64,000 nucleotides of DNA from a bacterium (GTDB taxonomy: Bacteria; Joyebacterota; Joyebacteria; Joyebacterales; Joyebacteraceae), in NCBI GenBank assembly GCA_025782395.1, contig JALGZD010000218.1:87556-151555 (forward strand), given 5' to 3'. Every line of letters starts with the position of its first letter. Positions within the stretch are counted from its first letter, which is position 1. The notes beneath the pieces were generated by a model. The model did no database searches. It saw only the letters and a list, made by a program, of their open reading frames with translations, and had not been told where the DNA came from. Both the position numbers and the translations under genes were made by a program. Positions 28,413 to 62,500 of the stretch are shown here, piece after piece.

Positions 28413-28438
28413 CGGCCCCTCGCGGAAAAGCGTTACAG

Positions 28439-29032: not shown

Positions 29033-29080
29033 ACGCCGTGGCGATGAGGATCACCGACGCATCCACTGCGGCGGCAGCTG

Positions 29081-31092: not shown

Positions 31093-31143
31093 TGGTTACC
31101 TCCATTTTGAGAGCACGCCGCCACAGGCGATCCTGACCGCCTC

Positions 31144-32418: not shown

Positions 32419-32431
32419 GAGGACTCCCTCG

Positions 32432-38255: not shown

Positions 38256-38362
38256 AATCCGCCCCCTCCCCCTCCTGTATCGCATCCGCTGCTGTCAGTT
38301 CGTCGGACCATGAAACCCTCAACGCGCTCATCACAGGCCCGGAACCGCGAACCACACCCGGC

Positions 38363-40423
<2,061 letters not shown>

Positions 40424-40425
40424 TC

Positions 40426-40501
40426 AGAATTCGCGGATCAGACCTACGTGCAGCTTGCCGTCCTAGAATTCGCGGATCAGACCTACGTGCAGCTTGCCGT
40501 C
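40426..40501. repeat. tandem duplication (39-bp period) of the 3' end of the Omp85 gene
   Basis: AGAATTCGCGGATCAGACCTACGTGCAGCTTGCCGTC at 40426-40462 and 40465-40501. On the minus strand both copies encode DGKLHVGLIREF followed by a stop (TGA in the distal copy, TAG in the copy that terminates the gene). Confidence 0.85.
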
Positions 40502-45653: not shown

Positions 45654-45656
45654 GGA

Positions 45657-46610: not shown

Positions 46611-46681
46611 GAGCCCTCCACTCCGAGTGAACGTGGGGATTCGTGGGGAGGGACAGAAGGGGAAGTGGATCGGGCAGGATG

Positions 46682-47557: not shown

Positions 47558-47568
47558 GCGCCACCCCG

Positions 47569-48414
47569 TCAGTAGGTTGTCACGAAAGCCACACTGAGAC
47601 CGGCCGCACCGCAGGGCACCCCGAATTCGATACCCACTTGAGCGGCAGCCGCGTCATTCTCAGTCCCGTGTCCTCCGGCAAGAATGAACGAGTCCACGGC
47701 GCTCACGACGTGATTCAACAGCGCGGCCATCATGAGATACCGCGCCTGTCTGAGAGACGTGTTGCTGTCCTTCCGCATCCCCCAGTACTCGTTGCGGAGT
47801 TCCAGGGCCTCAGCGGTCGGATCGTTCGGAACGCCGTCACCGCCCCACCACGGCCAGTAGACGTCGTACTTGCCTATATCTTCGTAGAACTCCTGTGATC
47901 CGCAGTCGGCCAGCGGCCTGCATCCATTGGCGTAGTCGTGGGGGCAATCGAGGCAGTTCTCGTTGTAGAACTCCATGTAGCCCTCGAGATCCCAGTTGGC
48001 ATCTGCGAATGATTCATAGTCGCTGCGTTCTTCCAGACCCTGCTTGTCCAGGACATAGAACCCGCTCCACATGGCGATCTCGGCGAGAAGAAAAAGGTAA
48101 CCCCGCTTCTTGCCCTGCACGAGTTCGCCGCTACCGGGGACCGCGAGCGACATGAGAAGCATCTTTGAAGGATCGTGCCCCGACTCGGCGAAGGCCACGT
48201 CGGATCCACCGCTCGACAGGAACTCGGCTCTGGCATCGAGTGAGGAGATCAGCGCCAGATCCGGCCGTGCGGCCGTTCCGTTCGGCACGGCGGCCACACC
48301 GAAAGCCACTGGCGCCAGTGCCGCGATCACGGCGCACACGACAGCGAGCCTGATCACAGGTTCTGATGCAAATCTCACCACATCCACCAAACCAGCCTCC
48401 GTCGGAACCGACAC
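47569..48414 (-). CDS. secreted hypothetical protein, paralog B
   Basis: 281 aa. LLMSLAVPGSGELVQGKKRGYLFLLAEIAMWSGFYV aligns with paralog A. C-terminal ...LRQARYLMMAALLNHVVSAVDSFILAGGH aligns with A's ...LSRKNAFHMIGLAILNRAISSIDSAWMARRH. Confidence 0.5.
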   Translation of the reverse strand: MSVPTEAGLVDVVRFASEPVIRLAVVCAVIAALAPVAFGVAAVPNGTAARPDLALISSLDARAEFLSSGGSDVAFAESGHDPSKMLLMSLAVPGSGELVQGKKRGYLFLLAEIAMWSGFYVLDKQGLEERSDYESFADANWDLEGYMEFYNENCLDCPHDYANGCRPLADCGSQEFYEDIGKYDVYWPWWGGDGVPNDPTAEALELRNEYWGMRKDSNTSLRQARYLMMAALLNHVVSAVDSFILAGGHGTENDAAAAQVGIEFGVPCGAAGLSVAFVTTY

Positions 48415-48426
48415 TGTAGTTTCCTC

Positions 48427-51400
48427 CTAACGAACGACGGCGACCTTCATGATCCTCTGTTCGGTCCGCTCCCTCTGACGCATTTCCCCCATCGGCGTCG
48501 GAAGAACCACGCGCGCCTCAACACGCACCAGGTAGAGCCCACCGGCAACAGAAGAGATGTCCCAGACAAACTCGTTCACCGTCGGGACGCCATCCATCTC
48601 CACACTCTCGATGACCTGCCCCGTCACATCCAGCATCTCGATACTGAGCTCCGCCGCCTCCTCGAGATAGACACGAACCGTGAGATCCGAAGCCATCGCT
48701 GGATTCGGGTAGCAGTAGGTTCGCTCGAGAGCCATGAGCGTCTCTGTTTCATCGTACGCACCGAGAAGAAGCGAATCAGCGTAGCAGCCGGTGCCCGCGG
48801 CGTTTCCGGCCTCGGTCGACCAGACGATTGTTTCATTGGAGCACTCGTACGGCATCCGGTAGAAGAGGATCCGCCCGCTGCTACCCGCGACCAGAACATC
48901 CAGTTCTCCGTCGTTGTCCGCGTCCCCGATCCACGGCGTTCCGAGCGAGACATCAGATGAGAGAGGCCAGCCTTCCAGCATCTTCCCCGTCACACCGTCC
49001 CACGCGAACAGACTACCGCCCGGACCTCCGATGATCACATCTGTAATCCCGTCGGAGTTGATATCACCGACGAGTGGCGAGGACGGAGTGGAACGCAGGC
49101 TGTCGCCCGCGGAGAACCCCAGGGGCCAGTTCTCAACGGCGGTCCCGTTCATCCTGATGCCGGTCACGCTGCGTCTGCCGGTCGGAACAAGCACCTCAAG
49201 ATAGCCATCGCCATCGATATCTCCGAGAGAGACCCGCCCGATGATCTCGGCGCCCACGTCGACGGGCCAACCGGGAAGCTCGTTGCCGCCCGAGTCCCAT
49301 GCGTAGACGACCCCATCTGATCCTGCCGCTATTACCTCTGTACGACCGTCCGCAGCGTGGTCTATGTCACCTATCACGATGCCGGAGGTCTCCTGAAGCC
49401 ACGAGTCCACGATGACGGGCCATCCGGGAAGCGGAGTCCCATCCAAACGAATGGCCGCGATCCAACCTCTGTTGGTGGTCGAAGTCATCAGCTCGTCTGC
49501 CCCGTCTCCATCGAGATCGCCCGCGGCCAGCGTCACGTCGTCCAGAACAAGATGGCCAAACGAGTACGGCGACGAACCGAGATGATGGCCTGTCGCGTCT
49601 ACTATCGTGATGTACCCTCCACGAGACACGGCTGCTATTTCGAGTCCACCGCCGGCTTCGAACTGTGCTGCGAGAGGAGCTCCGCTGGCGGGGCCGCCTA
49701 TATTCAGGGGGAAGTTGTCGGACACGAGGTCGGCGATCCCGTCGCCGCGATCGTCCCGTCCGTACCAGGCGTACAGGAGACCGTTGTCGGACGCGACGAT
49801 CACCTCGGCCGCACCGTCGCCATCCAGATCCGCAAGGGCCGGCGCATGCGAGACGCCCCCGGAGGCCGCGGCGATGAATCCGAACGGTCCCGCGCAATCA
49901 GGCATCACCGGCGATCCGTCGGCGTGCCACGCGTAGACGGCTCCATCCGTTGTTGCCACCACGATCTCCATCTCGCCGTCACCATCGATATCCGCGACGC
50001 GCGGCGTCAACTCGTCGACCGCGTCCTCGAGCTCTATGGGCCATCCGTCCTTCCATCGATCGAAGTGTATCGATGCCGTCATGGTCGAGTCCGGATTCGA
50101 GATACCGCTGATCGAGAGGTAGCTTTTCCCGCCAAGATTGTCGTCTGTAGAAGGGAACGTGTCCCAGGAGAACGTCCCGTTGTTGTCGGCGAAGAACGGA
50201 TCGTATCTGCTGCCGGCCCAGTAGAAACTCGAGATGTTGCCAAGGTCCATGATCCCGTCGGCCTCCTCAACGGCGACGCCGAGTCGATGGCGATCGGCAT
50301 TGACCCGGTTGTACGGAAGCAGTCCGGGGGTCACGCGGGTGTCGTCCACGTGGTAGATGAGAAGCCCGGGGCCGGGGAGCAGAAAATCGTACTCATGATT
50401 GACGGGACATACGGGGTCATCGCAACCGGGATCGACCGGACCCAGCACCACACCTCTCTCCTGCTCGATGACAACGAGGTTGTCTTTGCCAATGTCATCC
50501 ATGCGGTTTTCGAGAAGGAAGTACTCAGTGCTCGTGATCGGGATCTTGAAGAGCCTGGCGCCACCGCTTCTGAGAACGGAAGCCTTGATGGTAATCTCCT
50601 CCATATCCTCAGCAATTATGACGGGATCAGTCCAGCCGAGATACTGGAGCGACCAGCCGCAGGGCGGAACCGGAATGAGACCGTATGCCCACCCCCACGG
50701 CGTGTTCATACCGATCCGTCCGCCGGAATCCATAAGTCCCCAGTAACCGATTGCGGGAAAGAAGTTGGAGGTATTGTACAGGTCGGACAGCCCGAGGACG
50801 TGACCTACTTCGTGGGCAAGCGTCCCGTTCAGAACGATGGTGAGCCCGTCCTGACTCGACGTCTCCGGCATAATCGCCGAGCCCCAGATCTCGTGCGCGC
50901 CATCGTTCACGAGGATCGGCTCGCCCAGCGCGATGTGCGCCGAGGGAAGATCGTACGGCGAGTTCAGATATACATCGCTCTGCCAGTCAGCACCTGCGTG
51001 GAAGACCACGTACCCGTCGTACGCAGCGAAGTCTATGCTGTCTGTCGTATCGGCGGCAGCGAAAGCGTCGCGTATGAACGATTCCACCTGGCTTACGTAC
51101 CAGACTTGTTCTTCCGAGTAGTCGTGGTAGTAACCCATGTCGTGCGGCAGCACGTATGCCTGATTGGATTCGGCCGGAACGACAGTGAACTCGAGATCGA
51201 GTGCGCCGTGTGAGACCGATCCGTAGTAGTTCTTGAGCGCCGTCATGTGAAGCTCGAAGTACTCCAGGTCGTGCGGCGGTCCATCGAACGTTGCCCCGTC
51301 CCACTCGGAGTAGTCGAAGGTCCCGTCTCCTGTGCTCAGCGGGTCGGAGTCGGGCTGGAACTGCACCCGGATGGCCAGAAGGCGCACGAGCGTCCGGTCG

Positions 51401-51621
51401 CCATTGCCACGCTCTCTCGCACGAGCCAGTTCTATCGCGCTCACGCGGGCCGGCTGACTCGGATAGTACCTGGACGTCACCGCCTGGAGCTCCTCCGGGG
51501 CGGCCTCGCCGCTCTTGCTGCAGATCAGCGTGGACGCCGCGCCGGCAGGGAACGCGGTCACAAGCAATATCACAACCAGAACAGCTGCACCCAATCTCAT
51601 TCCGTCCTCCACCGATCTCAT
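48427..51621 (-). CDS. secreted zinc metalloprotease (M6/immune-inhibitor-A-like HEXXH) with FG-GAP repeats and T9SS-type C-terminal sorting domain
   Basis: 1064 aa. LAHEVGHVLGLSDLY. At least six DxDGDG...VY.W FG-GAP-like repeats. C-terminal ~90 aa YPNPA...LSIEMLDVTGQVI...GGLYLVRVEA matches the Por-secretion C-terminal domain pattern. Confidence 0.65.
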   Translation of the reverse strand: MRSVEDGMRLGAAVLVVILLVTAFPAGAASTLICSKSGEAAPEELQAVTSRYYPSQPARVSAIELARARERGNGDRTLVRLLAIRVQFQPDSDPLSTGDGTFDYSEWDGATFDGPPHDLEYFELHMTALKNYYGSVSHGALDLEFTVVPAESNQAYVLPHDMGYYHDYSEEQVWYVSQVESFIRDAFAAADTTDSIDFAAYDGYVVFHAGADWQSDVYLNSPYDLPSAHIALGEPILVNDGAHEIWGSAIMPETSSQDGLTIVLNGTLAHEVGHVLGLSDLYNTSNFFPAIGYWGLMDSGGRIGMNTPWGWAYGLIPVPPCGWSLQYLGWTDPVIIAEDMEEITIKASVLRSGGARLFKIPITSTEYFLLENRMDDIGKDNLVVIEQERGVVLGPVDPGCDDPVCPVNHEYDFLLPGPGLLIYHVDDTRVTPGLLPYNRVNADRHRLGVAVEEADGIMDLGNISSFYWAGSRYDPFFADNNGTFSWDTFPSTDDNLGGKSYLSISGISNPDSTMTASIHFDRWKDGWPIELEDAVDELTPRVADIDGDGEMEIVVATTDGAVYAWHADGSPVMPDCAGPFGFIAAASGGVSHAPALADLDGDGAAEVIVASDNGLLYAWYGRDDRGDGIADLVSDNFPLNIGGPASGAPLAAQFEAGGGLEIAAVSRGGYITIVDATGHHLGSSPYSFGHLVLDDVTLAAGDLDGDGADELMTSTTNRGWIAAIRLDGTPLPGWPVIVDSWLQETSGIVIGDIDHAADGRTEVIAAGSDGVVYAWDSGGNELPGWPVDVGAEIIGRVSLGDIDGDGYLEVLVPTGRRSVTGIRMNGTAVENWPLGFSAGDSLRSTPSSPLVGDINSDGITDVIIGGPGGSLFAWDGVTGKMLEGWPLSSDVSLGTPWIGDADNDGELDVLVAGSSGRILFYRMPYECSNETIVWSTEAGNAAGTGCYADSLLLGAYDETETLMALERTYCYPNPAMASDLTVRVYLEEAAELSIEMLDVTGQVIESVEMDGVPTVNEFVWDISSVAGGLYLVRVEARVVLPTPMGEMRQRERTEQRIMKVAVVR

Positions 51622-51713
51622 TCGACAGCCGGTGCCTCAGATACTCGCTCCGGCACAATCGGGCACTCTCTACCGAGTGCCTGGCTTGCCGGAGCGGAGT
51701 GTGGGTGCTCTTT

Positions 51714-52697
51714 TCAGAATGCGGCAGTCAGTGAGAACCTGAAGGGACGTTTGAGCCCTTCAGCCTGCGGCACATTCGCGATGTCGAATGCGAAGTCCCG
51801 ATACTTGAGCCCCATCCCGAAGGCGAAATCCTTCACTTCTCCGTCCTCATCGTACACGTAGCCCGCGCGTAGGCTCAGGAGGTCGAAGTACCGGTACTCC
51901 GCGCCAAGATTGAGAATGACGCCTGTGGACTGATCCATGATGTCCTCGATGATGACAAGCGACTTGTTGTAGTCACCGCACACCATCACCTTGTTCATCT
52001 CATCCGAGATGACCATGTAGGAAACACCGAGCTTCAGATTCCGGGGGAGAGGATCCGACTGTTCCTCGTCGATGTATGCGATTCTCGGTCCGACATGCTG
52101 AATCGCTCCTCCCAGCCTCAGTCTGCCGTCCCACAATCTGTAGAGCGCGCCGATGTCCGCCGCGAACGTCGTCCCCGCTCCCTTCTGCTGATCCTGCGTG
52201 TACTGAGCGGGAGCGAGATTGACGTAGACGAATTTGAGATTGAGGCCCAGCGCCAGATTATCGGTCAGGAGAGTGCCATAGGCCACCGACGGTATGACCT
52301 CGTAGGAACTGAATGTGCCGATTGGGTCCGGGCTGTCCGGATCCGTGGCTATCTGCTCACCGTACGTGAGATAGACAAGAGACGCCCCGACAGTACCCAG
52401 GCCCTCGATGCGCTGCGCGTACGCCGCGTACTCATAATAGACATCGTCCCAGTCCGGGACCAGCTGCGTGTGCATGAGCGTGACGTTGAACTCAGCTCCG
52501 ATGAATGCGAGTCCGGCAGGATTCCACGAGACGGCACTTGCATCCTCCGCCACGGCTGCAAAGCAATCGCCCATACCGGCCGGCCTGGCGCCCGGCTGGA
52601 TGTAAAGCGACTGAGCTCCGCCGATCGACACCTGCGCGTGTGCCGGTGCCACGATCGCAACTGCCAGCAGCGTCAGAAGCATTCCTGTTCTCAGCAT
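51714..52697 (-). CDS. FadL-fold outer-membrane beta-barrel, PorV/PorQ/PorP-like
   Basis: 327 aa. Signal peptide. GARPAGMGDCFAAVAEDASAVSWNPAGLAF N-terminal motif typical of FadL/PorV-like barrels. Ends ...SLTAAF. Confidence 0.45.
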   Translation of the reverse strand: MLRTGMLLTLLAVAIVAPAHAQVSIGGAQSLYIQPGARPAGMGDCFAAVAEDASAVSWNPAGLAFIGAEFNVTLMHTQLVPDWDDVYYEYAAYAQRIEGLGTVGASLVYLTYGEQIATDPDSPDPIGTFSSYEVIPSVAYGTLLTDNLALGLNLKFVYVNLAPAQYTQDQQKGAGTTFAADIGALYRLWDGRLRLGGAIQHVGPRIAYIDEEQSDPLPRNLKLGVSYMVISDEMNKVMVCGDYNKSLVIIEDIMDQSTGVILNLGAEYRYFDLLSLRAGYVYDEDGEVKDFAFGMGLKYRDFAFDIANVPQAEGLKRPFRFSLTAAF

Positions 52698-52730
52698 ATC
52701 TCGGTCTCTCCCCTCAGTTGTCCATGAAAA

Positions 52731-55700
52731 TCATCTCATGATGACGGCTCTGCCGATCGCCTCGGCCTTGTCGCCACGGTAGCTCCTGGAGACGGCGGAA
52801 ACTCTGTACAGATAAACTCCGTTGGCCGGCTCGTCTCCTACGTGATCCCGACCGTCCCAGAAAACCTGATTGGCTCCTGCGGTCGCATCGATGTCGTCCA
52901 GCGTGACGATTCTCCTGCCTCCCACCGTGAAGATATCGATCCTGACGTCCGCGTCCACCGGCAGCTGGAAGAGGATATAAGTACCCTCTCTCCCCGCGTC
53001 AGGGAACGGATTCGGGTGGTTGGCAACATTCCGTATCTCGAAATCGGCAGCCGAGATCACTTCGAACCAGAGGTTCTCGCTCTGCCTGTTGCCGACGTTG
53101 TCGCTCGCCGAGAGCGAGAGCGAATGGCCGCCCAGTGGCATTGATGGAAGATCGTACTCGAACGAACCCCCGCGAAAATCCCCAAGGTCGCAGATGAAAT
53201 CACCGGTCAGATCGGTCGAATCGCTGCTGTCGATCTGAAGGATGATGCCACGTCCACCGCCCTCGGTCGCCAGGTTGATTCCGCTCTCGTCAAAGAGCGA
53301 GATCGCCATGGTTGCACTCGGCAGAACCGAGGCCCCACCACCCTCGAATTCGAGAGCGATATCCGGGCCGGTGTGGTCCGAGACTTCCACCGAATCCATG
53401 AGTGCCACGTTCTCCAACGAGAAAGCCCCATCAGTACCGCTGCCGTAGGCGTACACCCGGACTCTCCCGTATGGACCCTCGCGCGCCGCAGTCGAAACGA
53501 CGAACTCCGTAGACAGATCACCGTCCAAGACCGCGACCGGTCCCCGGAAGATCGTCTCTCCCGGAAGCGAGTAGTCAACGTGATATCCGCTCGACTCCTG
53601 TGTGTACCCGGTCGTGTCTGCGCTCTCCGAGACACGAATGAGCGCGACCCCGTCCAGACTCTCGATAGCACCCGTGCCCTCACCTTCGACTTCGATCCTC
53701 GAGCCACGCTTCATCGGGTCGAGGTCGTCGGAGACGAGAACACCGCCTCCTACGGGCGCTGCCAAGGTCAGGCCCGGATCGCCCAGCACAACGAACTTCG
53801 AGTTGTTCCACCATGCAGACAGGCTGCCCCACATTGAAAACGCCGTCTGGAACGCACACCCTACGTCCATCACAGCTTCAGGACTTGTCTGCTGGTATCC
53901 AAAGATGGCCCTGAGGAAGTCGCGGTTGAAATTGGCATTCTGGTTGGCCCCTGAGTCCCGCGTGCTTCCGATGGAGATGATGGAACCTCCTATCGCGGAT
54001 TTCGCCAGGGCCTCACCCAGGGAATCGACGGTCTCATGGTCGAACTTATTCAGCCTGCACGAAGCGGCGAAGAAAAGAGGAAGAGTATCGATGTTGTTCA
54101 GAAGTGAGACGTCATCAAACAGTAAGACGGACTCATGAGCAATGACGATCTCACTGCCGTGGCCCGTGTAGTTCAGAAGGAGGGCGCCCCCGTTCCAGGC
54201 GTCGATGACGTCGGCCCGGGCGGCAGGCTTCATCGTGCCCACTTTCTCATATTCCATGAGATAAATCTTGCGCCGATCCAGAGGGAAGGGCAGCACATCA
54301 GTGGCTATCTGCTCCGTCTGCACGGTGTGCAACCACTCGGTGGAGCCGTCCACCGTGTACTCATCGTCGCCCAGGAGAATGGCTGTGTTCTTCCAGAGGC
54401 CCGGCTGCTCTGCCAGCTCGTAGCGCTCAATCTTGTCCACCATCGTCGCCGCTTCCGTGACCGTGTCAACGGACAGGCGTCCGAGAGCGATGTTCATGTC
54501 ACACCGGACAGTGTCCTCGAAGCAAACGTACCAGACGTCGGCCGGCCAGTACCAGGGCGAGAATGATGTGGCGAATCGGAGCATGTGGTGCACAGGAATG
54601 TACGTCGGGAGACTTGATGAAGCGTACCCGCGGGAATCGGACGTCCCGTCGCCGATCAGGACTGCGTGTGTGGGCGGTACAGCCTCATTCTCCCAGGTGA
54701 ACTTGAAGTAGTCCCTGATGGCGGCCGCATCTACGATGCCCCACGAGAATTCGTCGTAGATGTCGGACACCTTCACCAGGCGGACGTCGAAGCTGCCTCC
54801 ACTCGCGCTCTCCCTGATGTTCTTCAATCGGACGGCATCATCGTAGAACATGTCGTGAACAACCATGAGGTAGTCGTGCCCGCCCGGTGTTCTCAGGTCC
54901 CCGAACTCATCCAGCTCCAGCGACGGCGTCAAGTACGCTGCGGATGAGATCGCCGCATACGATGCCGTATCTGCGGCATCGTCCTGAAACACAATAGCGT
55001 TGTCCCTGCCTGCGGTCCCATGTGAAACGCCCGGTATCGTCCGAACGGTGAACTTGTTCATGATCTTGTAGACCATGACATCCGGATTCTGAAATCCGGT
55101 GACCGTGTGTTCCACAATCCCTGTCCTGCCGGAGCTTCCGAAGAAGACGCGATCGTTGGTCGCAATCAGGTTTCTCCAGTACGTGATATCGAACCAGTCA
55201 ATGTATATCGACTCGTCGGTCGCCCCGGGGATATCTCGCGGAAGGTAGATCTCAAGCGTGTTGTAGCCTTCATTGATGGAGAGGCTGTCGGCTTCGAATC
55301 TCATGTCCCCATAGGCATTCCCGTAGGCCTCGTACGCCTCTTCTCCGTTCAGAGAGAAGATGACATGGTGATCCGGATTGCAGGGGAAAGAGCTGTTGCC
55401 GTAGACGCTCGCCGCGAGACATCCGAGCGAGTCGGTCCTGACGTGGCTCAACTGCTCGTGAAAGTAGCGACGACTCTCGCTCTTCGTCATCTCGTGCCAG
55501 AACCAGTTGTCGGACCGCCCCTGACGCGTGAGGATGTTGCGCTCGAAATGCGTACGCACTCTGTGGGCATCAGCCAGGATCGGCGTTGGTGAATTCTGCA
55601 GGTCGTCTTCTTCCATACGGAGAGGATCGGCACTGAATCCCGACGGCGCACCCTGGTTCTCCCACGTCAGCCAGTAGACATTCTCGTTCGCGAAGCGGTT

Positions 55701-56762
55701 CTCGTGGTAGGGCTCCTCCGGATTCTCAATGTCGAATTCGGTCGACCACCCGTCGGCGCCCAGCGCATAGAAGACCACGCAGTCACCGGGATCGAATGAG
55801 CTATCACTCTCACCCGGCACACGTATCGTACACTCTTCCATCCAGTCCGGACGTGGTTCGAGCACGGAGGGTGGCATCGACAACCCGCCCCCGCTGAACA
55901 CGCGAAAGGTCGCAGGATCGATCGCGCCGGCAGCCACACCGAGGGAGACCAGCGCGTCATAGGGAACGCTGTAGAATCCCCTGTCCGAGACCGACATCTT
56001 CACCCAGTTGGACGACGTATAGAAGTAATCCCCGTCACGACGACCAGAAACGTCCAGGCGGTTGCCGACCCGGCGCCAAGCCCTACCGCTCTCGTAGTTC
56101 AGGAGACTGACCCGGAACATATTCTCTCGCCGCGCCGCATCGCGGAGTGGACCGCCGTCCTCGCTCACGGCGCCTCGCTTGAGTCCACTGAATGTCAGCC
56201 TCGCTTGAATCCTCTCCTGCGAGATCAGAGTGTTGCGGGCGGGATCGAACTGAACAGGATGGAACTCCAGAACGACAACGCGCTGGGTCGCGAACCACTT
56301 GGGCCCTTCAAAACTTGCGGCCGTCGGGGGCCAGAGACCGGATATCTCATAGACACTCCCTTCCTGCCGCTCGTACCGGCTGAGTTCACCCGCCGGCACC
56401 CGCACAGAGGATGGAGCCGGAGCCACTCGGACCCCTTCCGTCGACTCTGTTCCGCCCGTTGTCAGCTGGAGCTCGACCGTCTCACAGTCGGGAACGGCAA
56501 GCATGACTCGGATGCATGGGAGATCGGGACCACCAGGAACCGCCAGGAACTGCGAGTGAGGCAGAGCGATCGAGACGTAGTCGCGATCATCTATCGTCAG
56601 AGCCGTGAGAATCGGCTCCCCGGGTTCGCACACGAGCGTGATGCCCGTTTCGTTTGACTCCACGAGCGTGACCGAGGCCGGAACCGCCGCTACGGGACTT
56701 GCGAAAGCTACAATCCAGATCGCCGCCGGCACAGCTGCCGCGAGAGAGCTTCGGTGACTCAC
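52731..56762 (-). CDS. clan CD C25 (gingipain-like) cysteine peptidase with T9SS-type/FlgD-Ig-like C-terminal domain
   Basis: 1343 aa. Signal peptide. Catalytic dyad context LLNYTGHGSE (His) and FFAASCRLNKF (Cys). C-terminus NPFPDAG...VRIDIFTVGGRRIVTL...WDGRDHVGDEPANGVYLYRV. Confidence 0.65.
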   Translation of the reverse strand: MSHRSSLAAAVPAAIWIVAFASPVAAVPASVTLVESNETGITLVCEPGEPILTALTIDDRDYVSIALPHSQFLAVPGGPDLPCIRVMLAVPDCETVELQLTTGGTESTEGVRVAPAPSSVRVPAGELSRYERQEGSVYEISGLWPPTAASFEGPKWFATQRVVVLEFHPVQFDPARNTLISQERIQARLTFSGLKRGAVSEDGGPLRDAARRENMFRVSLLNYESGRAWRRVGNRLDVSGRRDGDYFYTSSNWVKMSVSDRGFYSVPYDALVSLGVAAGAIDPATFRVFSGGGLSMPPSVLEPRPDWMEECTIRVPGESDSSFDPGDCVVFYALGADGWSTEFDIENPEEPYHENRFANENVYWLTWENQGAPSGFSADPLRMEEDDLQNSPTPILADAHRVRTHFERNILTRQGRSDNWFWHEMTKSESRRYFHEQLSHVRTDSLGCLAASVYGNSSFPCNPDHHVIFSLNGEEAYEAYGNAYGDMRFEADSLSINEGYNTLEIYLPRDIPGATDESIYIDWFDITYWRNLIATNDRVFFGSSGRTGIVEHTVTGFQNPDVMVYKIMNKFTVRTIPGVSHGTAGRDNAIVFQDDAADTASYAAISSAAYLTPSLELDEFGDLRTPGGHDYLMVVHDMFYDDAVRLKNIRESASGGSFDVRLVKVSDIYDEFSWGIVDAAAIRDYFKFTWENEAVPPTHAVLIGDGTSDSRGYASSSLPTYIPVHHMLRFATSFSPWYWPADVWYVCFEDTVRCDMNIALGRLSVDTVTEAATMVDKIERYELAEQPGLWKNTAILLGDDEYTVDGSTEWLHTVQTEQIATDVLPFPLDRRKIYLMEYEKVGTMKPAARADVIDAWNGGALLLNYTGHGSEIVIAHESVLLFDDVSLLNNIDTLPLFFAASCRLNKFDHETVDSLGEALAKSAIGGSIISIGSTRDSGANQNANFNRDFLRAIFGYQQTSPEAVMDVGCAFQTAFSMWGSLSAWWNNSKFVVLGDPGLTLAAPVGGGVLVSDDLDPMKRGSRIEVEGEGTGAIESLDGVALIRVSESADTTGYTQESSGYHVDYSLPGETIFRGPVAVLDGDLSTEFVVSTAAREGPYGRVRVYAYGSGTDGAFSLENVALMDSVEVSDHTGPDIALEFEGGGASVLPSATMAISLFDESGINLATEGGGRGIILQIDSSDSTDLTGDFICDLGDFRGGSFEYDLPSMPLGGHSLSLSASDNVGNRQSENLWFEVISAADFEIRNVANHPNPFPDAGREGTYILFQLPVDADVRIDIFTVGGRRIVTLDDIDATAGANQVFWDGRDHVGDEPANGVYLYRVSAVSRSYRGDKAEAIGRAVIMR

Positions 56763-57229
56763 CAGGAGTCCTCCTCGCCTGCAGCGCCGGTGAATGCAGA
56801 ACTCACATCGCTTCGATTGATGACGCCGACGACCCGGCTGTCTTCGTCGACCACGGGCAGGAGAACGTGCTTGTTGTTGAGCATTACAGCAGCGACCTTC
56901 ATCATGGACGTTCCGGGACCGACCGTGTGTGGATCGGCATGCATAATATCCTCTGCAAGGAAAAGCGTCGGTTCGATCTCCGACATCGTCTGCGCTTCGA
57001 TCGCTCCGAAATCGTCGAGAAAAGCGAGATCATCGAACATCGAAAGATAGTGCGGAAGAAATATGTTTATGAGTTCTTCATGTGTGACGACACCGAGCAG
57101 ACGGCCGTCCTCGTCGACGACCGGGACGCCGGTGATTCTATGGCATCTCAGAAGCTCCGCAATCTCAGCGATGTTCGCCGACCGTCCGACAGTGACGACG
57201 TCCGTAGTCATGTAGTCGCGCGCCTTCAT
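56759..57229 (-). CDS. CBS-domain pair protein
   Basis: 156 aa. Two CBS motifs (DYMTTDVVTVGRSANIAEIAELL...ITGVPVVDEDGRLLGVVT; ...HVLLPVVDEDSRVVGVINRSDV). Confidence 0.7.
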   Translation of the reverse strand: MKARDYMTTDVVTVGRSANIAEIAELLRCHRITGVPVVDEDGRLLGVVTHEELINIFLPHYLSMFDDLAFLDDFGAIEAQTMSEIEPTLFLAEDIMHADPHTVGPGTSMMKVAAVMLNNKHVLLPVVDEDSRVVGVINRSDVSSAFTGAAGEEDSW

Positions 57230-57276
57230 GTTCCCCCATTCCGGCGAGGCGATTCCTCGTGCCCTTTGTCAGGCGC

Positions 57277-57735
57277 CTACTTCACCGAGTCGAAAAGCCT
57301 GAGCACATCGTCCACAGAGTCCGTTGAGAGAAGCAGTTCTCTGTTCCCCTCGTCCTTCATCAGAAACGACATGTGCGCTATCAGGTTGAGGTAGAGGCGC
57401 GACGGTTCCTCCTCCTTGGGTGCCCCGATAAGGAAGACGAGTCGGACCGGATTCCCGTCCAGGGCTCCGAAGTCTACGTCTGTCGTCGTGCGCCCGAACG
57501 CGAACACCACATCGCGCACTGCCTTGCTCTTCGCATGAGGGAACGCTACTCCGTAGCCCACCCCCGTCGACACGAGTTCCTCTCTGGCCAAGACGTCGCT
57601 CAGGAAGATGTCGGCATCCGCGACCTTCCTGGATCGCGACAGCAGATCCGTCATGCGTCTGATGACTTCTTCTTTGGTACCGGACGTGACGTCCAGGCTC
57701 ACAAACCTGCGATCGGTAAAGGCTGATAGCTTCAT
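57277..57735 (-). CDS. ptsN: PTS EIIA type-2 nitrogen-regulatory protein
   Basis: 152 aa. GVAFPHAKS active-site His region. EIIA-Ntr fold signatures. Confidence 0.75.
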   Translation of the reverse strand: MKLSAFTDRRFVSLDVTSGTKEEVIRRMTDLLSRSRKVADADIFLSDVLAREELVSTGVGYGVAFPHAKSKAVRDVVFAFGRTTTDVDFGALDGNPVRLVFLIGAPKEEEPSRLYLNLIAHMSFLMKDEGNRELLLSTDSVDDVLRLFDSVK

Positions 57736-57748
57736 CCGGGGAGAGCTC

Positions 57749-58705
57749 CTAGGCTTCCTTGTACTTACCCATACTCATGAACTTCTCGAGCCGGCGGTCC
57801 ACAAGTTCGGTCGGGCTCAGCTTCTCAAGCTCGCTCAAGTGCCTCCGGATCGCCTCACCGACGTTCCGCGCCGCCATCTCGGGATCTCTGTGCGCCCCAC
57901 CCACCGGCTCACGAACAATCTCGTCGATCACACCGAGCGACATCAGGTCCGGCGCCGTTATCTTCATGGCTTCTGCAGCCTGCTGCGCCTTGGCGGCGTC
58001 CCTGTAGAGAATGGATGCGCACCCTTCGGGTGAGATCACGGAGTAGATCGCGTACTCCATCATGAGAACACGATCACCGACGGCGATGCCCAGCGCTCCA
58101 CCACTGCCGCCTTCGCCGATAACCACTACAACGAACGGCACCGGAAGACGCGCCATCTCGTGCAGATTCACGGCGATGGCCTCAGCCTGTCCGCGCTCCT
58201 CGGCACCGATACCGGGATACGCACCCGGCGTGTCCACAAAAGTGATGATCGGACGTCCATATTTCGCCGCCAGCTTCATGAGCCTGAGAGCCTTGCGATA
58301 CCCCTCAGGGTGAGCCATGCCGAAGTTGCGCCTGATGTTCTCCTTCGTATCCCTGCCCTTCTGGTGACCTATCACAACTACCTTGCGATCGCCCCAGAAG
58401 CCGAATCCGCCGACAATGGCCGCGTCATCACCAAAGCGCCTGTCACCGTGGAGTTCGACGAGCTCTATGCCTAACATCTTCACATAGTCCAGCGTGTATG
58501 GACGACGCGGGTGACGCGCTATCTGTGTCATCTGCCACCGGGTGAGCTTCCCGTAGATCTGCCTGCGCAGCTCCCCGGCCTTCGCCTCCAACCGTGTCAG
58601 CTCGGAGGCGACGTCGATGTTCTGGCTGTCCGCGAAGCTCCTGAGCTCGTCTATGCGCTGTTCCAGCTCCAGAAGGGGACGCTCGAACTCAAGCCATCCT
58701 ATCAT
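57749..58705 (-). CDS. accA: acetyl-CoA carboxylase carboxyltransferase alpha subunit
   Basis: 318 aa. [17 protein letters not shown]...[15 protein letters not shown] canonical AccA. Confidence 0.9.
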
Positions 58706-58722
58706 ATGTGTCCCACCTCCGA

Positions 58723-59466
58723 TCAGAACGAGTCGTAGAAAGCGAATCCAAGTGCCCTGCTGTTCAGTTCAGGCGAGCCGCTGGGGCCTACGATGTTCCG
58801 GAAGTAGATGTCAACCTCGAGCTGTTCCATGAATATCCAGCGGAGCCCGAAGTTCAGGCAACCAGTCGTGCCTTCGGGGTCACCCTCGAGTCGATCCATC
58901 TCCCATTGGTACTCAGCAACGACCGAGAACTCCTGTGAGAGACGCGCCGACGCGCCAAAAACGATGTCCGGCTTCGCTCTTTCCTCATCAAGAGTTCGCG
59001 AAAGCCCCGCGTGCGCCTGCCAGAACTCGGAGAAAGGAAGTGTCTTGGCAGCGCTTACATAGATGCCGGGCGAGGCCTTTTCGTACTCCCCGCTCTCCAG
59101 CTGCCGACCGTATCCCCTCGAATCGTAGCCGATGGCGATCTCGGGAATGACGTCCGTCTCCTCGGCTATCCGGAGCTTGATGTCGAACTCTATGCGATCC
59201 TCCCACTCCGGGGACCCGCTCCCCACGACATTCGAGGCCCCGTAGGAAACGCCTGCCAGCACGTAGTCCGAGATTCCAACACGCAGCCCGGTGATCACGC
59301 CCCCATCGGGCACGATACGCATCCCGAGGGAGTACCCGCCCTTTGGAAGCCCGTATGCGCTCTGGAAGTCGACCAGCTTGATCGGATGCTCCACCTGAGC
59401 CGCGGCTATGGATGGAAGCACCACGATCAGAATGAAGAGAGCCGCAAGTGCCCTGCTTCTCTGCAT
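58723..59466 (-). CDS. small outer-membrane beta-barrel protein, unknown function
   Basis: 247 aa. Signal peptide [24 protein letters not shown]. Alternating hydrophobic pattern. Terminal ...FAFYDSF. Confidence 0.45.
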
Positions 59467-59541
59467 CTACGGGTCCTTTCAGCCGACCGGAATGCCCCAT
59501 GATTTGGGAGAAAATATAGCAACGTTGGAATTCGCTGTCAA

Positions 59542-62500
59542 TCAGAAACGCGGTTCGGGCACCCCGGCTCGTTGCGCCGCCCCTACCAGCTCGACGGACG
59601 ACTGTCCAACGAGCGGCTCCAGATCATTGAGAAGCTCCCGAGACAGTTCGACCCTTATCGTTCCCACCTCTATCTTCAGTTCCCGCCCATCCACGGTCTC
59701 GAGAACGATGTCGACCCGACATCGACCCGGGTGCCGCAAGAGAACGGCCCTCACATCATGGAGGAGCGACTCCTCAAGACCTGTGGTGGAGAGATGAATG
59801 GCGATGCGCTCAACGAATCGCCCCATTGCGCTCGACAGCGGGACGATTTCACCAACAATGATCTTCGGCTCCTGCTCCTCACGGGTTGAGAGCTTGCCGT
59901 CGATGATCACGGCGGCCTCGTTTCTTATCTCTGCCTGCCGCTTTGCGTAGATGCCGGAGAAAATGATGGCCTCCACGCTGCCGGTAAAATCCTCGATGGT
60001 CGCGAACGCCATCCGCTGTCCCTTTCTGTCGTTCGTCGTCTTCACCTGGGTGATGATCCCCCCCAGGCGGACCTCCTCGCCATCATCGATCTCACTCAGA
60101 TCCTCGATGGATGCGGTGGCGAAAGCATCCAGCTCTCGCCCGTATCGAGCGAGCGGGTGCCCCGTTACATAGAACCCGAGCACGTCCTTCTCCCGCGAAA
60201 GCGAGAAGCTGTCGCTCCACGGCTCGGCTTCCGGGAGTTTCCTCGGCTGGACCGTCGCCGCCTCATCATCGCCGCCCCCGAAGAGCAACGTCTGTCCGGA
60301 GTCCCGCTCCCGCTGGAGACGCTGACCAAGCTCGAGCGCCGCGGGAATACCCGCCATCTGCTGCGCGCGGTGCCCATGGAGTCCGTCCATAGCGCCCGCC
60401 GCGATGAGGCTTTCCAATACTCTCCGGTTCACGAGCCTCAGGTCAACGCGGCCGACAAGATCGAAGATGTCACCGAATTCGCCGTGTTTCTGTCTCGCAT
60501 CGACAAGTGACTGGATCGCCGGGAGCCCGACGTTCTTTACGGCACCGAGTCCGAACTGGATGTCGTTCCTGGCACTCGCCAGGAAACCGGCGTGCCCCTG
60601 ATTGATGTCTGGAGGGAGCACCTGTATCCCCATGCGCTTGCACTCGTTCATGAGGACCACCATCCGATCGGTGTTGCCCATCTCGCTCGTCATCGCGGCC
60701 GCCATGTACTCAGCGGGATAGTGCGCCTTCAGGTAGGCCGTCCTCACCGCGAGGATAGCGTAGGAGGCGCTGTGGGCCTTGTTGAAGCCGTAGTCTGCGA
60801 ACTTCGCCATCTGATCGAAGACCGCGATCGCCGTCTTCTTCTTGATTCCACCTGCTGTGGCGCCCCTGATGAACTCCTCGCGCTGCTGGTCCATGACGTC
60901 TGTGACCTTCTTGCGCATCGCGTTGAGAAGAACATCCGCTTGGCTCATGGAGAACCCCGCCAGCGCGCTCGACACCTGCATCACCTGCTCCTGGTACGCG
61001 ATGACGCCGTACGTCTCACCAAGGACCGGCTCCAGGTTCGGGTGAAGAAACCTGACCTTTTGCTTGCCGTGCTTTCTCTTGACGTAGTCGTCGACCATGC
61101 CGGAGCCCAGCGGGCCGGGGCGGTACAGCGCGTTGATCGCTATCATGTCCTCGAGCCGTTCCGGCTTCATCTTCCTGAGAAGATCCCGCATTCCCGACGA
61201 CTCGACCTGAAAGACCCCGACCGTATGCGCGGCCGCGAGGAGTTCAAAGGTGGCGGAATCATCAAGCGGGATATCCTGAGGGGTCAGGGTGACACCATGG
61301 TTCTCCCGCATCATCTCTATTGCATCATCGATGACGGTCAGTGTTCTGAGACCGAGAAAATCGAACTTGAGGAGACCGATCTTCGAGAGCGATTTCATCG
61401 CGTACTGTGTCGTGATCTCATCGCGGTTCGTCTTGTACAGGGGTGCCCAATCCGAGATCCGACCCGGCGCGATAATGACGCCTGCGGCGTGCACGGAAGC
61501 GTGTCTGGAGAGCCCCTCGAGCGTCTTCGCGTACTCGAACAGCTTCACATGTCTGTCGTCGGACACTGCGAGCGCCTTGAGATCGGGCACGCGCGCGATC
61601 GCATTGGCCAGAGTGATATTGAGTTCACGCGGGATCAGCTTCGCTATGCGATCGATTTCGGAGTACGTGAACTTGAGAACGCGGCCCACATCTCGTATGA
61701 CGGCCCTGGCCTGCATCGTTCCGAAGGTGATTATCTGGGCGACGGAATCTCTGCCGTACTTGGACGTGACGTAGTCGATGACTTCGCTCCGCCGCTCGTA
61801 GCTGAAGTCGATGTCGAAATCCGGCATGCTCTTTCTGGCCGGATTGAGAAAGCGTTCGAAGACCAGGCCGAACTCCAGGGGATCGAGTTCGGTGATGCCC
61901 AACGCATAGCTTACTATGCTCGCCGCTGCCGAGCCTCTCCCGGGTCCGACCGCGATGTCGCGTCTTCTCGCCTCGCGTATGAAATCGTGAACGATCAGGA
62001 AATAGCCGGAGAAACCCATCCCCGCTATCATCTCAAGCTCCGTTGTAACGCGATCCTCGATCTCCGGCGTGATGGTCTCGTATCTCTCTGCGATCCCCTC
62101 ACGGGTCAGAGCAGTCAGATAGGCCGCCGCGTCCTGGTATCCGTCCGGAATCGGAAAGCGAGGCATGTGAACCCGACCGAACTCAAGAGAGAGATTGCAC
62201 TTCTCAGCGATCTCGACAGTGTTGCTACAGGCCTCAGGAAGGTCGGCGAAGATCTCCTTCATTTCCTCCGGCGACTTGAAGTAGAACTGATCGTTCGCCA
62301 TGCGCATCCGGTTTGGATCATCGATCTCCTTCCCCGTCTGGATACAGAGGAGCACGTCGTGGGCGGCCGCGTCCTCGCGACGGAGGTAGTGGCAGTCGTT
62401 CGCCGCCACGAGAGGCACACCGAGTTCCTGCGAGAGCTGTTTGAACCCCTGGATGACACGCTCCTCCTCCTCCAGACCGTGCCGCTGTACCTCAAGGTAG

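What the first reader, a model, noticed from the sequence alone, without database searches (positions are those of the whole stretch)
51714..56762. C25 gingipain-like peptidase with T9SS-type C-terminal domain, followed by a FadL/PorV/PorQ-like barrel
The peptidase carries the caspase-fold His (NYTGHGSE) and Cys (AASCRLNKF) contexts of gingipains. It also has a C-terminal Ig-like domain of the kind removed by the T9SS sortase.

The next gene downstream encodes a 327-aa FadL-fold barrel with the GMG...DDASA..WNPAGL motif seen in PorV/PorQ-type shuttle proteins. In Bacteroidota, cargo genes are often paired with dedicated PorP/SprF or PorV-like partners. Seeing the same pairing in a high-GC, non-Bacteroidota-looking genome suggests a dedicated cargo/shuttle pair.
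Basis: partly seen in the sequence, partly recalled or inferred. Interest (0 to 1): 0.55.

Follow-up and report, generated by a model that had tools for sequence, protein, structure and literature searches.

The report
PorU sortase and PorV shuttle genes
The two genes are not a protease cargo with a private shuttle: they are the standard type IX secretion sortase (PorU) and its outer-membrane partner (PorV), here in an uncultured Candidatus Eisenbacteria genome, and the main twist is an extra gingipain-style prodomain on PorU.

Summary
Both ORFs and the quoted motifs are real. The 1343-aa protein is not a gingipain-like cargo. It matches NCBI's PorU (T9SS sortase) equivalog model end to end and above its cutoff (535.8 vs 420 bits). 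Its best solved relative is P. gingivalis PorU (6za2), and the His868/Cys902 dyad is invariant in 18 homologs.

The 327-aa protein is a PorV/PorQ-family barrel (237.9 vs 90 bits). Its best solved relative is F. johnsoniae PorV.

porU-porV adjacency is the canonical Bacteroidota arrangement (PG0026/PG0027). The likely cargo is the next gene downstream: an M6-like metalloprotease with an FG-GAP propeller, a type-A CTD and an intact HExxH motif.

The closest relatives (79-83% identity) are Candidatus Eisenbacteria MAGs. T9SS has been reported in several non-Bacteroidota FCB phyla, but I found no paper on it in Eisenbacteria.

One real variant: residues 28-193 form a gingipain-type prodomain (Pfam E 1.6e-18; predicted fold matches only the RgpB and Kgp prodomains). 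P. gingivalis PorU lacks it.

No PorK/L/M/N or canonical SprA gene lies in the window. A conserved, unannotated 1137-aa giant beta-barrel nearby shows a weak local SprA similarity, which remains inconclusive.

Verdict: an ordinary new member of a known system.

The parts
52731..56762 (-). porU: T9SS sortase / C-terminal signal peptidase, 1343 aa, with signal peptide
   Evidence: NF033707 T9SS_sortase PorU 535.8 bits (cutoff 420) over aa 249-1341. Best PDB relative is P. gingivalis PorU 6za2, E 1.3e-37. 100% identical protein P0001 lies on a 153,976-bp JGI contig.
56184..56681 (-). PorU aa 28-193: gingipain-type N-terminal prodomain, absent from P. gingivalis PorU
   Evidence: Pfam Propeptide_C25 67 bits, E 1.6e-18. 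AF2 model of aa 1-250 has pLDDT 81.9. Foldseek against the PDB hits only the RgpB prodomain 4ief_A (E 1.6e-13, TMt 0.81) and the Kgp prodomain 5mun (E 1.6e-10); the next hit has E 0.047. PgPorU residue 33 aligns to aa 247 here.
53763..54872 (-). PorU aa 631-1000: Peptidase_C25 catalytic domain
   Evidence: PF01364 255.2 bits, profile positions 1-374 of 374.
54159..54161 (-). codon of the predicted catalytic His868 (NYTGHGSE)
   Evidence: Aligns to the llnyaGHGg segment of PgPorU and to nytGHGse of gingipain R. G867-H868-G869 are invariant in 18 homologs down to 24% identity.
54057..54059 (-). codon of the predicted catalytic Cys902 (FFAASCRLNKF)
   Evidence: Aligns to the itatCdf segment of PgPorU. 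Invariant in 18 homologs.
52734..53033 (-). PorU aa ~1244-1343: C-terminal beta-sandwich (T9SS CTD-like; PNPF...GVYLYRV)
   Evidence: Aligns to PgPorU up to residue 1137 of the chain. FlgD_ig 22.3 bits, below the cutoff of 27. A CTD HMM built from PorU orthologs hits the CTD of the M6-like protein at E 6e-10, and the reverse search gives E 1.5e-4; no other of the 366 window ORFs is hit.
51714..52697 (-). porV: PorV/PorQ-family outer-membrane barrel, 327 aa, signal peptide, C-terminal ...LTAAF
   Evidence: NF033709 237.9 bits (cutoff 90). PorV equivalog 176.7 bits (below its cutoff of 250). PorQ 74.7 bits. Pfam PorV 92.1 bits. Best PDB relative is F. johnsoniae PorV 6h3i_F, E 2.8e-22.
48427..51621 (-). 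Likely T9SS cargo: M6-like metalloprotease + FG-GAP propeller + type-A CTD, 1064 aa
   Evidence: TIGR03296 M6 domain 88.8 bits. NF052323 390.7 bits (cutoff 600). TIGR04183 23.1 bits (cutoff 23). PF18962 28.3 bits (cutoff 27). FG-GAP_3 73.9 bits. HExxHxxGLxDxY (aa 270-282; H270-H274 at 50800..50814) and the CTD motif PNP...GxYxxR are invariant in 6 orthologs down to 29% identity.
42240..45653 (-). Context only; a role in secretion is unproven. Unannotated 1137-aa giant outer-membrane beta-barrel with a local SprA-like segment.

Best explanation
The locus encodes the surface-processing (attachment) module of a type IX secretion system in a Candidatus Eisenbacteria bacterium. It consists of porU (sortase) followed 33 bp later by porV (outer-membrane carrier and anchor), with a probable substrate as the next gene.

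Inferred mechanism, by homology to P. gingivalis and F. johnsoniae. Proteins with a type-A C-terminal domain, such as the adjacent M6-like/FG-GAP metalloprotease, cross the inner membrane by Sec. They then leave through an outer-membrane translocon bound to the extracellular loops of PorV and are carried to PorU. PorU is itself held on PorV through its own uncleaved CTD. The PorU His868/Cys902 dyad cleaves off the cargo CTD through a thioester intermediate. That intermediate is resolved either by water or small amines (release) or by a surface glycolipid amine (anchoring).

Specific to this lineage, PorU carries an N-terminal gingipain-type prodomain. It is therefore probably made as a zymogen that is kept inactive until the prodomain is removed. 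This differs from, or adds to, the dimer-based latency described for P. gingivalis PorU.

Shown here: family identity, catalytic residues, domain architecture, gene order, and conservation across relatives. Inferred: every biochemical step, retention of the CTD, zymogen behaviour, and the identity of the translocon.
For: PorU identity:
- NF033707 scores 535.8 bits against a cutoff of 420, covering model positions 3-1094 of 1095.
- PDB PorU 6za2 scores 132 bits over aa 631-1323, against 25.7 bits for gingipain R.
- His868 and Cys902 are invariant in 18 homologs.

PorV identity:
- NF033709 scores 237.9 bits against a cutoff of 90. PorV is the best specific model at 176.7 bits, against 74.7 for PorQ.
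- The best PDB relative is PorV 6h3i_F, E 2.8e-22.

Gene arrangement:
- porU-porV adjacency is canonical (PG0026/27, Fjoh_1556/1555; PMC5445135).
- The order porU-porV-M6-like/CTD is conserved at 57% and at 30% PorU identity, and in a Krumholzibacteria contig.

Cargo and CTD:
- The cargo's CTD passes TIGR04183 and PF18962 and is homologous to the PorU CTD.
- Its HExxH motif is intact in all orthologs examined.

Prodomain: Pfam E 1.6e-18, and Foldseek returns exclusively the RgpB and Kgp prodomains.

Mechanism and taxonomy from the literature:
- The mechanistic model is taken from PMC10202324 and PMC10994853.
- T9SS is reported in other FCB phyla in PMC11285876.
Against: - No PorK/L/M/N, SprE, SprT, PorQ, PorZ or canonical SprA/Sov gene was detected in the 64-kb window with NCBIfam. 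A complete T9SS in this genome is therefore not demonstrated.
- The 327-aa protein misses the PorV equivalog cutoff (176.7 vs 250 bits). It is also about 64 aa shorter than F. johnsoniae PorV between Fj residues 258 and 323.
- PorU's CTD does not reach the cutoffs of the general CTD models.
- The synteny block also contains housekeeping genes (dnaE, accA, ligA, dinG, hut). Conserved gene order is therefore weak evidence of functional coupling beyond porU-porV.
- No experimental data exist for this phylum.
Confidence: 0.85

Rival explanations
1. The 1343-aa protein is a gingipain-like secreted protease (a T9SS cargo whose CTD is removed), and the 327-aa barrel is its dedicated PorV/PorP-like shuttle.
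For: It has the gingipain layout of prodomain, C25 catalytic domain and C-terminal beta-sandwich. PorU is formally a T9SS substrate as well (PMC10202324; PMC5445135 Table 2). More distant C25 proteins with the same Pfam trio but other lengths exist in the databases (P0026-P0036).
Against: - The PorU equivalog model matches aa 249-1341 above its cutoff, including about 380 aa of PorU-specific domains between the prodomain and the catalytic domain.
- PgPorU scores 132 bits against 25.7 bits for gingipain.
- The gene sits in the canonical porU-porV arrangement, inside a syntenic housekeeping block that is conserved down to 30% identity.
- The barrel scores as PorV, not as PorP/SprF (22.4 bits).
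Confidence: 0.05
2. The pair belongs to the paralogous PorU2/PorV2 sorting system that NCBIfam models together with a T9SS-dependent M6-like inactivated metalloprotease, not to the main T9SS attachment complex.
For: The gene trio here (PorU-like, PorV-like, M6-like/FG-GAP/CTD) has the same composition as the set described by NF052324, NF052325 and NF052323. All three models give significant matches (152, 46.3 and 390.7 bits).
Against: All three scores are far below their cutoffs (450, 325, 600), whereas the canonical PorU and PorV/PorQ models pass theirs. The M6-like protein is not inactivated: HExxHxxGLxDxY is invariant in 6 orthologs.
Confidence: 0.05
3. A reduced, non-canonical sorting pathway. 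PorU/PorV process CTD proteins that exit through the neighbouring ~1100-aa giant barrel (a SprA-like but half-size translocon), possibly without PorKLMN.
For: - No canonical SprA lies in the window.
- The 1137-aa OMP is the only window protein with any SprA similarity (TIGR04189 E 1.2e-7; 35 of 41 family members hit, best E 3.7e-12).
- Its model is a barrel of about 40 strands, against 36 strands for SprA (PMC10994853).
- SprA chains give the highest query TM-scores in Foldseek, 0.25-0.27.
- It lies 5 genes downstream of porV in Eisenbacteria, in the 30%-identity lineage and in Krumholzibacteria.
Against: - The SprA score is 29 bits against a cutoff of 200 and covers only about 85 aa.
- In a Latescibacteria contig and an Ignavibacteria contig the same OMP is not next to porU/porV.
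- The synteny block includes housekeeping genes.
- The rest of the genome was not searched for a full-length SprA.
Confidence: 0.15

Closest known systems
PorU (PG0026) of Porphyromonas gingivalis, T9SS C-terminal signal peptidase/sortase, PDB 6za2; NCBIfam NF033707
   Same: Full-length match to the PorU model above its cutoff. C25 catalytic domain with the aligned His/Cys dyad. Post-catalytic beta-domains and C-terminal CTD align to PgPorU up to residue 1137. The gene lies directly upstream of porV.
   Different: It has about 215 extra N-terminal residues that form a gingipain-type prodomain PgPorU lacks. Identity to PgPorU is low, and only aa 631-1323 align by phmmer. It comes from a high-GC (about 60%) Candidatus Eisenbacteria genome.
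PorV (Fjoh_1555 / PG0027 LptO), T9SS type-A cargo carrier and PorU anchor, PDB 6h3i chain F; NCBIfam NF033709/NF033710
   Same: FadL-fold barrel family. The N-terminal GMGD...DASA..WNPA motif region aligns. It lies immediately downstream of porU.
   Different: 327 aa against 402 aa, lacking roughly Fj residues 259-322. It scores below the PorV equivalog cutoff (176.7 vs 250 bits). It could therefore combine or differ in PorV/PorQ roles.
Gingipain RgpB/Kgp zymogens (prodomain structures 4ief_A, 5mun)
   Same: The N-terminal prodomain fold (TMt 0.81 and 0.70) sits upstream of a C25 catalytic domain, with a CTD at the C-terminus.
   Different: The catalytic domain and the remaining domains are PorU-type, not gingipain-type (25.7 vs 132 bits). 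About 440 aa of PorU-specific domains separate the prodomain from the catalytic domain.
NCBIfam NF052323 'T9SS-dependent M6-like inactivated metalloprotease' (for the downstream 1064-aa gene)
   Same: Same overall length and layout: M6-like N-terminal domain, FG-GAP region and CTD. It scores 390.7 bits in 5 stretches and is adjacent to PorU/PorV-type genes.
   Different: Below the cutoff of 600. The zinc-binding HExxH...D motif is intact and invariant, so the protein is predicted to be an active protease.

Membership tests
T9SS sortase PorU (NF033707; MEROPS C25, PorU type) | Full-length match to the curated PorU equivalog model above its trusted cutoff | tested here: met
   535.8 bits against a cutoff of 420; aa 249-1341 on model positions 3-1094 of 1095.
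T9SS sortase PorU (NF033707; MEROPS C25, PorU type) | Caspase-fold His/Cys catalytic dyad at the positions used by P. gingivalis PorU | tested here: met
   H868 and C902 align to the GHG and atC motifs of 6za2. Both are invariant in 18 homologs. That the PgPorU cysteine (Cys690) is catalytic is from the literature as I recall it; the Cys/His dyad is stated in PMC10202324.
T9SS sortase PorU (NF033707; MEROPS C25, PorU type) | C-terminal T9SS CTD (beta-sandwich), retained and used to bind PorV | tested here: inconclusive
   A CTD is present. It aligns to the PgPorU CTD and is homologous to the CTD of the neighbouring cargo. It stays below the FlgD_ig cutoff and gives no TIGR04183 or PF18962 hit. 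Retention and PorV binding cannot be tested in silico here.
T9SS sortase PorU (NF033707; MEROPS C25, PorU type) | Genomic association with porV | tested here: met
   A 33-bp gap to the PorV-family gene. The same order is found in relatives at 57% and 30% identity and in Krumholzibacteria.
T9SS sortase PorU (NF033707; MEROPS C25, PorU type) | CTD cleavage and transpeptidation to a surface glycolipid | not testable with these tools
   Needs biochemistry or proteomics.
T9SS sortase PorU (NF033707; MEROPS C25, PorU type) | Co-occurrence with the T9SS core (SprA/Sov, PorK/L/M/N, PorT, PorW) | tested here: inconclusive
   None was detected among about 45 window proteins scanned with NCBIfam. The window covers only 64 kb of a 154-kb contig. 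Attempts to walk beyond the window ends failed.
PorV/PorQ family (NF033709); PorV equivalog (NF033710) | Match to the PorV/PorQ subfamily model above its cutoff | tested here: met
   237.9 bits against a cutoff of 90; aa 27-327 on model positions 3-326 of 326.
PorV/PorQ family (NF033709); PorV equivalog (NF033710) | Match to the PorV equivalog model above its cutoff | tested here: not met
   176.7 bits against a cutoff of 250. This is still far better than PorQ (74.7) or PorV2 (46.3). Calling it PorV rests on synteny with porU and on best-hit logic.
FadL/TodX substrate transporter (PF03349) | Full-length match including the N-terminal hatch | tested here: not met
   Toluene_X scores 33.9 bits over aa 47-157 only, on profile positions 31-115 of 421. 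The only PDB sequence relative is PorV.
Gingipain-type secreted C25 protease (RgpB/Kgp) | Catalytic domain closest to gingipains, with the gingipain domain order (prodomain directly followed by the catalytic domain) | tested here: not met
   Gingipain R scores 25.7 bits against 132 bits for PorU. The prodomain (aa 28-193) and the catalytic domain (aa 631-1000) are separated by PorU-specific domains.
PorU2/PorV2 putative sorting system (NF052324, NF052325) | Scores above the cutoffs of those models | tested here: not met
   152 bits against 450, and 46.3 bits against 325.
T9SS type-A CTD cargo (TIGR04183 / PF18962), for the 1064-aa M6-like protein | C-terminal sorting domain above the cutoff | tested here: met
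   TIGR04183 23.1 bits against 23; PF18962 28.3 bits against 27. Both are marginal. The CTD motifs are invariant in orthologs.
SprA/Sov translocon (TIGR04189), for the 1137-aa OMP at 42240..45653 | Match to the SprA model above its cutoff; 36-strand capped barrel | tested here: not met
   29.4 bits against 200, local only. Fold searches are non-specific. A giant barrel of about 40 strands is predicted, so analogy remains possible but membership is not supported.

The most novel reading that the evidence does not exclude
In Eisenbacteria, Krumholzibacteria and related FCB lineages, the ancestral or alternative type IX-like pathway is a compact module with three features. PorU is a prodomain-bearing zymogen. 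PorV is short. The unannotated barrel of about 1100 aa and about 40 strands takes the place of the 2300-aa SprA translocon. This barrel has a local SprA-like segment and is encoded with an NHL lipoprotein and a dedicated Omp85 paralog. Its family is very large (6043 clusters at 50% identity) and has no Pfam or NCBIfam name.
Probability: 0.15. Interest if true: 0.7.

Novelty: new member of a known kind. Interest (0 to 1): 0.3.

Why it matters
As found, it mainly corrects an annotation: the "protease cargo" is the sortase itself. It also extends the documented range of T9SS surface-processing genes to Candidatus Eisenbacteria, a phylum with no cultured members and no T9SS literature that I could find.

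The prodomain-bearing PorU suggests that sortase latency is controlled differently outside Bacteroidota: by a gingipain-like zymogen mechanism rather than, or in addition to, dimer-based latency. That could be tested with recombinant protein.

The neighbouring giant-barrel family would matter more. If it turned out to be a minimal SprA-type translocon, it would bear on how T9SS evolved and on how small such a translocon can be.

Tried and rejected
1. Gingipain-like cargo reading: rejected on model scores.
2. FadL transporter reading of the 327-aa protein: rejected.
3. PorU2/PorV2 system: rejected, all scores far below the cutoffs.
4. M6-like neighbour as an inactivated protease or a PorZ analogue: the HExxH motif is intact and there is no PDB sequence relative, PorZ included. 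It is therefore treated as cargo.
6. Walking along the source contig beyond the window: exact-product look-ups for three window genes found nothing.
7. Literature: no paper combines Eisenbacteria with type IX secretion. A search for T9SS with other candidate FCB phyla gave nothing relevant. The PorU structure paper (PMC8501833) is not held.
8. Promoter/terminator scan: no enrichment overall and no terminator between porU, porV and the M6-like gene. There is one strong promoter-like site upstream of the 247-aa OMP gene.
Full report
**Observation**

The window is about 60% G+C throughout. Nearly all of its genes lie on the minus strand.
- 52731..56762(-) encodes 1343 aa with a signal peptide.
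- 51714..52697(-), 33 bp further on, encodes 327 aa with a signal peptide and a C-terminal ...LTAAF.

The quoted motifs are present:
- NYTGHGSE starts at aa 864, giving His868.
- AASCRLNKF starts at aa 899, giving Cys902.

**What the large protein is**

Pfam finds three domains:
- Propeptide_C25 at aa 28-193, E 1.6e-18.
- Peptidase_C25 at aa 631-1000, 255 bits, covering the full profile.
- A sub-threshold FlgD_ig domain at aa 1263-1325 (22.3 bits against a cutoff of 27).

The decisive result is NCBIfam NF033707, "type IX secretion system sortase PorU". It scores 535.8 bits against a curated cutoff of 420, with aa 249-1341 on model positions 3-1094 of 1095.

Among solved structures, the best relative is P. 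gingivalis PorU (6za2), at E 1.3e-37 and 132 bits. The alignment runs from the catalytic domain to the end of the CTD. Gingipain R reaches only 25.7 bits.

The GHG histidine and the catalytic-type cysteine align with those of PgPorU. They are invariant in an alignment of 18 homologs that reaches down to 24% identity.

The protein is therefore PorU, the enzyme that removes CTDs, and not a gingipain-like cargo.

**What the small protein is**

NCBIfam NF033709 (PorV/PorQ family) scores 237.9 bits against a cutoff of 90, end to end. The other models rank as follows:
- PorV equivalog: best specific model at 176.7 bits, but below its cutoff of 250.
- PorQ: 74.7 bits.
- PorV2: 46.3 bits.
- Pfam PorV: 92.1 bits.
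- Toluene_X (FadL): 33.9 bits over aa 47-157 only.
- PorP_SprF: 22.4 bits.

The only solved-structure relative by sequence is F. johnsoniae PorV (6h3i_F, E 2.8e-22). Relative to that protein, this one lacks roughly residues 259-322.

**The pairing**

porU and porV are neighbours in the reference organisms: PG0026/PG0027, 75 bp apart, and Fjoh_1556/Fjoh_1555 (PMC5445135). In the current model:
- PorV carries type-A CTD substrates from the SprA/Sov translocon to the PorQUZ attachment complex.
- PorU cleaves the CTD with a Cys/His dyad and transfers the substrate to anionic LPS, or releases it.
- PorU is itself a CTD protein whose CTD is not removed and stays bound to PorV (PMC10202324; PMC10994853).

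**The probable cargo**

The next gene, 48427..51621(-), encodes a 1064-aa protein with:
- a signal peptide;
- an M6-type metalloprotease domain (TIGR03296, 88.8 bits);
- FG-GAP repeats;
- a C-terminal sorting domain that just passes both curated models (TIGR04183 23.1 vs 23 bits; PF18962 28.3 vs 27 bits).

Its best family match is NF052323, "T9SS-dependent M6-like inactivated metalloprotease", at 390.7 bits against a cutoff of 600. However, the zinc motif HExxHxxGLxDxY is invariant in six orthologs down to 29% identity. So are the CTD motifs PNP...GxYxxR. The protein is therefore predicted to be active.

I built HMMs from the CTDs of the PorU orthologs and of the M6-like orthologs. Each hits the other protein (E 6e-10 and 1.5e-4). 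Neither hits anything else among the 366 window ORFs of 80 aa or more. PorU's C-terminal domain is therefore the same kind of domain as a bona fide type-A CTD.

**Organism and conservation**

The five loci recovered from species-representative genomes are 79-83% identical. Four are titled Candidatus Eisenbacteria MAGs. An identical protein lies on a 153,976-bp JGI metagenome contig.

The following gene order recurs at 57% PorU identity and at 30% identity:
- dnaE
- a gene for a ~250-aa OMP-like protein
- accA
- small genes
- porU
- porV
- the M6-like/CTD gene
- two genes for small membrane proteins
- an NHL-repeat protein gene
- a ~1100-aa OMP gene

A Krumholzibacteria-type contig shows the stretch from porU onward and continues with Omp85, ligA, dinG and hut genes, as in the window. 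This block contains housekeeping genes. Its conservation therefore says little about function beyond the porU-porV-cargo core.

[quoted passage not shown] No held paper links Eisenbacteria to type IX secretion.

**A real variant: the prodomain**

The PorU model starts at aa 249, and PgPorU residue 33 aligns to aa 247 here. This PorU therefore has about 215 additional N-terminal residues.

Those residues match Pfam Propeptide_C25. By phmmer they weakly match the Kgp and RgpB prodomains (E 0.019 and 0.076).

An AlphaFold2 model of aa 1-250, built from an 18-sequence alignment, has pLDDT 81.9 and pTM 0.77. Foldseek against the PDB returns only two folds:
- the RgpB prodomain (4ief_A, E 1.6e-13, TMt 0.81);
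- the Kgp prodomain (5mun, E 1.6e-10, TMt 0.70).

The next hit has E 0.047, and PgPorU itself is not hit.

Residues inside this domain (P82, P91, R161, P169) are invariant across all 18 homologs. The domain is therefore a fixed feature of this PorU lineage.

In gingipains the prodomain keeps the zymogen inactive. In P. gingivalis PorU, latency is attributed to dimerisation (PMC10202324). I infer that this PorU is a prodomain-controlled zymogen. That inference is untested.

**T9SS core genes**

NCBIfam scans of about 45 window proteins found only housekeeping functions besides the genes above. These include NuoF-like, KorAB, SucC, RfaE, DprA, Obg, GlcD, Pta, an AtoS/AtoC-like two-component pair, FtcD, HutI, HutU, a DinG-exonuclease fusion, ThiC, LigA, AccA, a PTS-IIA-like protein, a CBS protein and DnaE.

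The one exception is the 1137-aa protein at 42240..45653(-). It has a signal peptide, ends in ...RLNAFF, and has no Pfam hit. It gives a weak local hit to TIGR04189 SprA: 29.4 bits, E 1.2e-7, aa 322-408 on model positions 602-687.

What supports a link to SprA:
- The hit is shared by 35 of 41 family members, with a best E of 3.7e-12.
- The AF2 model (pLDDT 82.5, pTM 0.71) shows about 40 long beta-strands from aa 174 to the C-terminus. SprA has 36 strands.
- In Foldseek, SprA chains have the highest query TM-scores, though these are only 0.25-0.27.

What argues against, or leaves it open:
- Foldseek otherwise returns only generic barrels.
- In a Latescibacteria contig the family lies next to an NHL protein gene and an Omp85 gene, without porU/porV. 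In an Ignavibacteria contig it stands alone.

The family is very large: 6043 clusters at 50% identity with E up to 0.001. All members seen are unnamed.

I regard a translocon role as possible but unsupported. I could not search the remainder of the genome.

**Verdict**

- The locus is the porU-porV sortase/shuttle module of a T9SS, with an adjacent probable cargo, in Candidatus Eisenbacteria. Current NCBI models would annotate it correctly.
- It is a new member of a known kind. It has one well-supported architectural variant (the gingipain-type prodomain on PorU) and one open lead nearby (the giant barrel family).

Noticed in passing
window 42240..45653 (-): A 1137-aa outer-membrane protein with no Pfam domain. 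The AF2 model (pLDDT 82.5) shows a barrel of about 40 strands, and there is a local SprA-like segment at aa 322-408. Its family has 6043 clusters at 50% identity, all unnamed, in Eisenbacteria, Latescibacteria, Krumholzibacteria and Ignavibacteria MAGs. It may be one of the largest single-chain barrels; its function is unknown.
   Followed up: partly
window 40463..42253 (-): A 596-aa Omp85/POTRA protein, below the BamA cutoff (110.9 vs 297 bits). Its start overlaps the end of the giant-barrel gene by 14 bp. The giant barrel + Omp85 pairing recurs in the Krumholzibacteria and Latescibacteria contigs. It may be a dedicated assembly factor.
   Followed up: partly
window 45657..46610 (-): A 317-aa NHL-repeat protein with a possible lipobox (LAVGC). 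It is conserved immediately upstream of the giant-barrel gene in Eisenbacteria, Krumholzibacteria and Latescibacteria contigs.
   Followed up: partly
window 46682..47557 and 47569..48414 (-): Two adjacent proteins (291 and 281 aa) that look paralogous and share a membrane motif (LxMSxxxPGxGExxxG). They give only weak DUF5683 and DUF6677 similarity (E about 0.004-0.005). They are conserved between the M6-like gene and the NHL gene in all related loci.
   Followed up: no
window 48427..51621 (-): The M6-like/FG-GAP/CTD protein is closest to an NCBIfam family named "inactivated metalloprotease". It nevertheless has an intact zinc motif, HExxHxxGLxDxY, which is invariant in orthologs down to 29% identity.
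   Followed up: yes
window 58723..59466 (-), and 59513..59541: A 247-aa OMP-like protein with a signal peptide, a C-terminal ...FYDSF and no family hit. It is conserved between dnaE and accA in relatives. Directly upstream is the best sigma-70-like site in the region (TTGACA-17-TATATT, 11 of 12, with an extended TG). This may be the start of the transcription unit that runs through porU.
   Followed up: no
window 30193..63021, compared with L006, L008 and L012: Long-range gene order is conserved between Eisenbacteria and a Krumholzibacteria-type contig: dnaE, accA, porU, porV ... Omp85, ligA, dinG-like, hut genes. This is unusual across such divergent lineages (PorU about 30% identical).
   Followed up: partly
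window 26490..29066 (-): An 858-aa ORF with no NCBIfam hit and only a weak TonB Plug similarity (E 0.015). Its first ~230 codons are Arg/Gly-rich and look non-coding, so the real start is probably near aa 228, where a signal-peptide-like segment begins.
   Followed up: no
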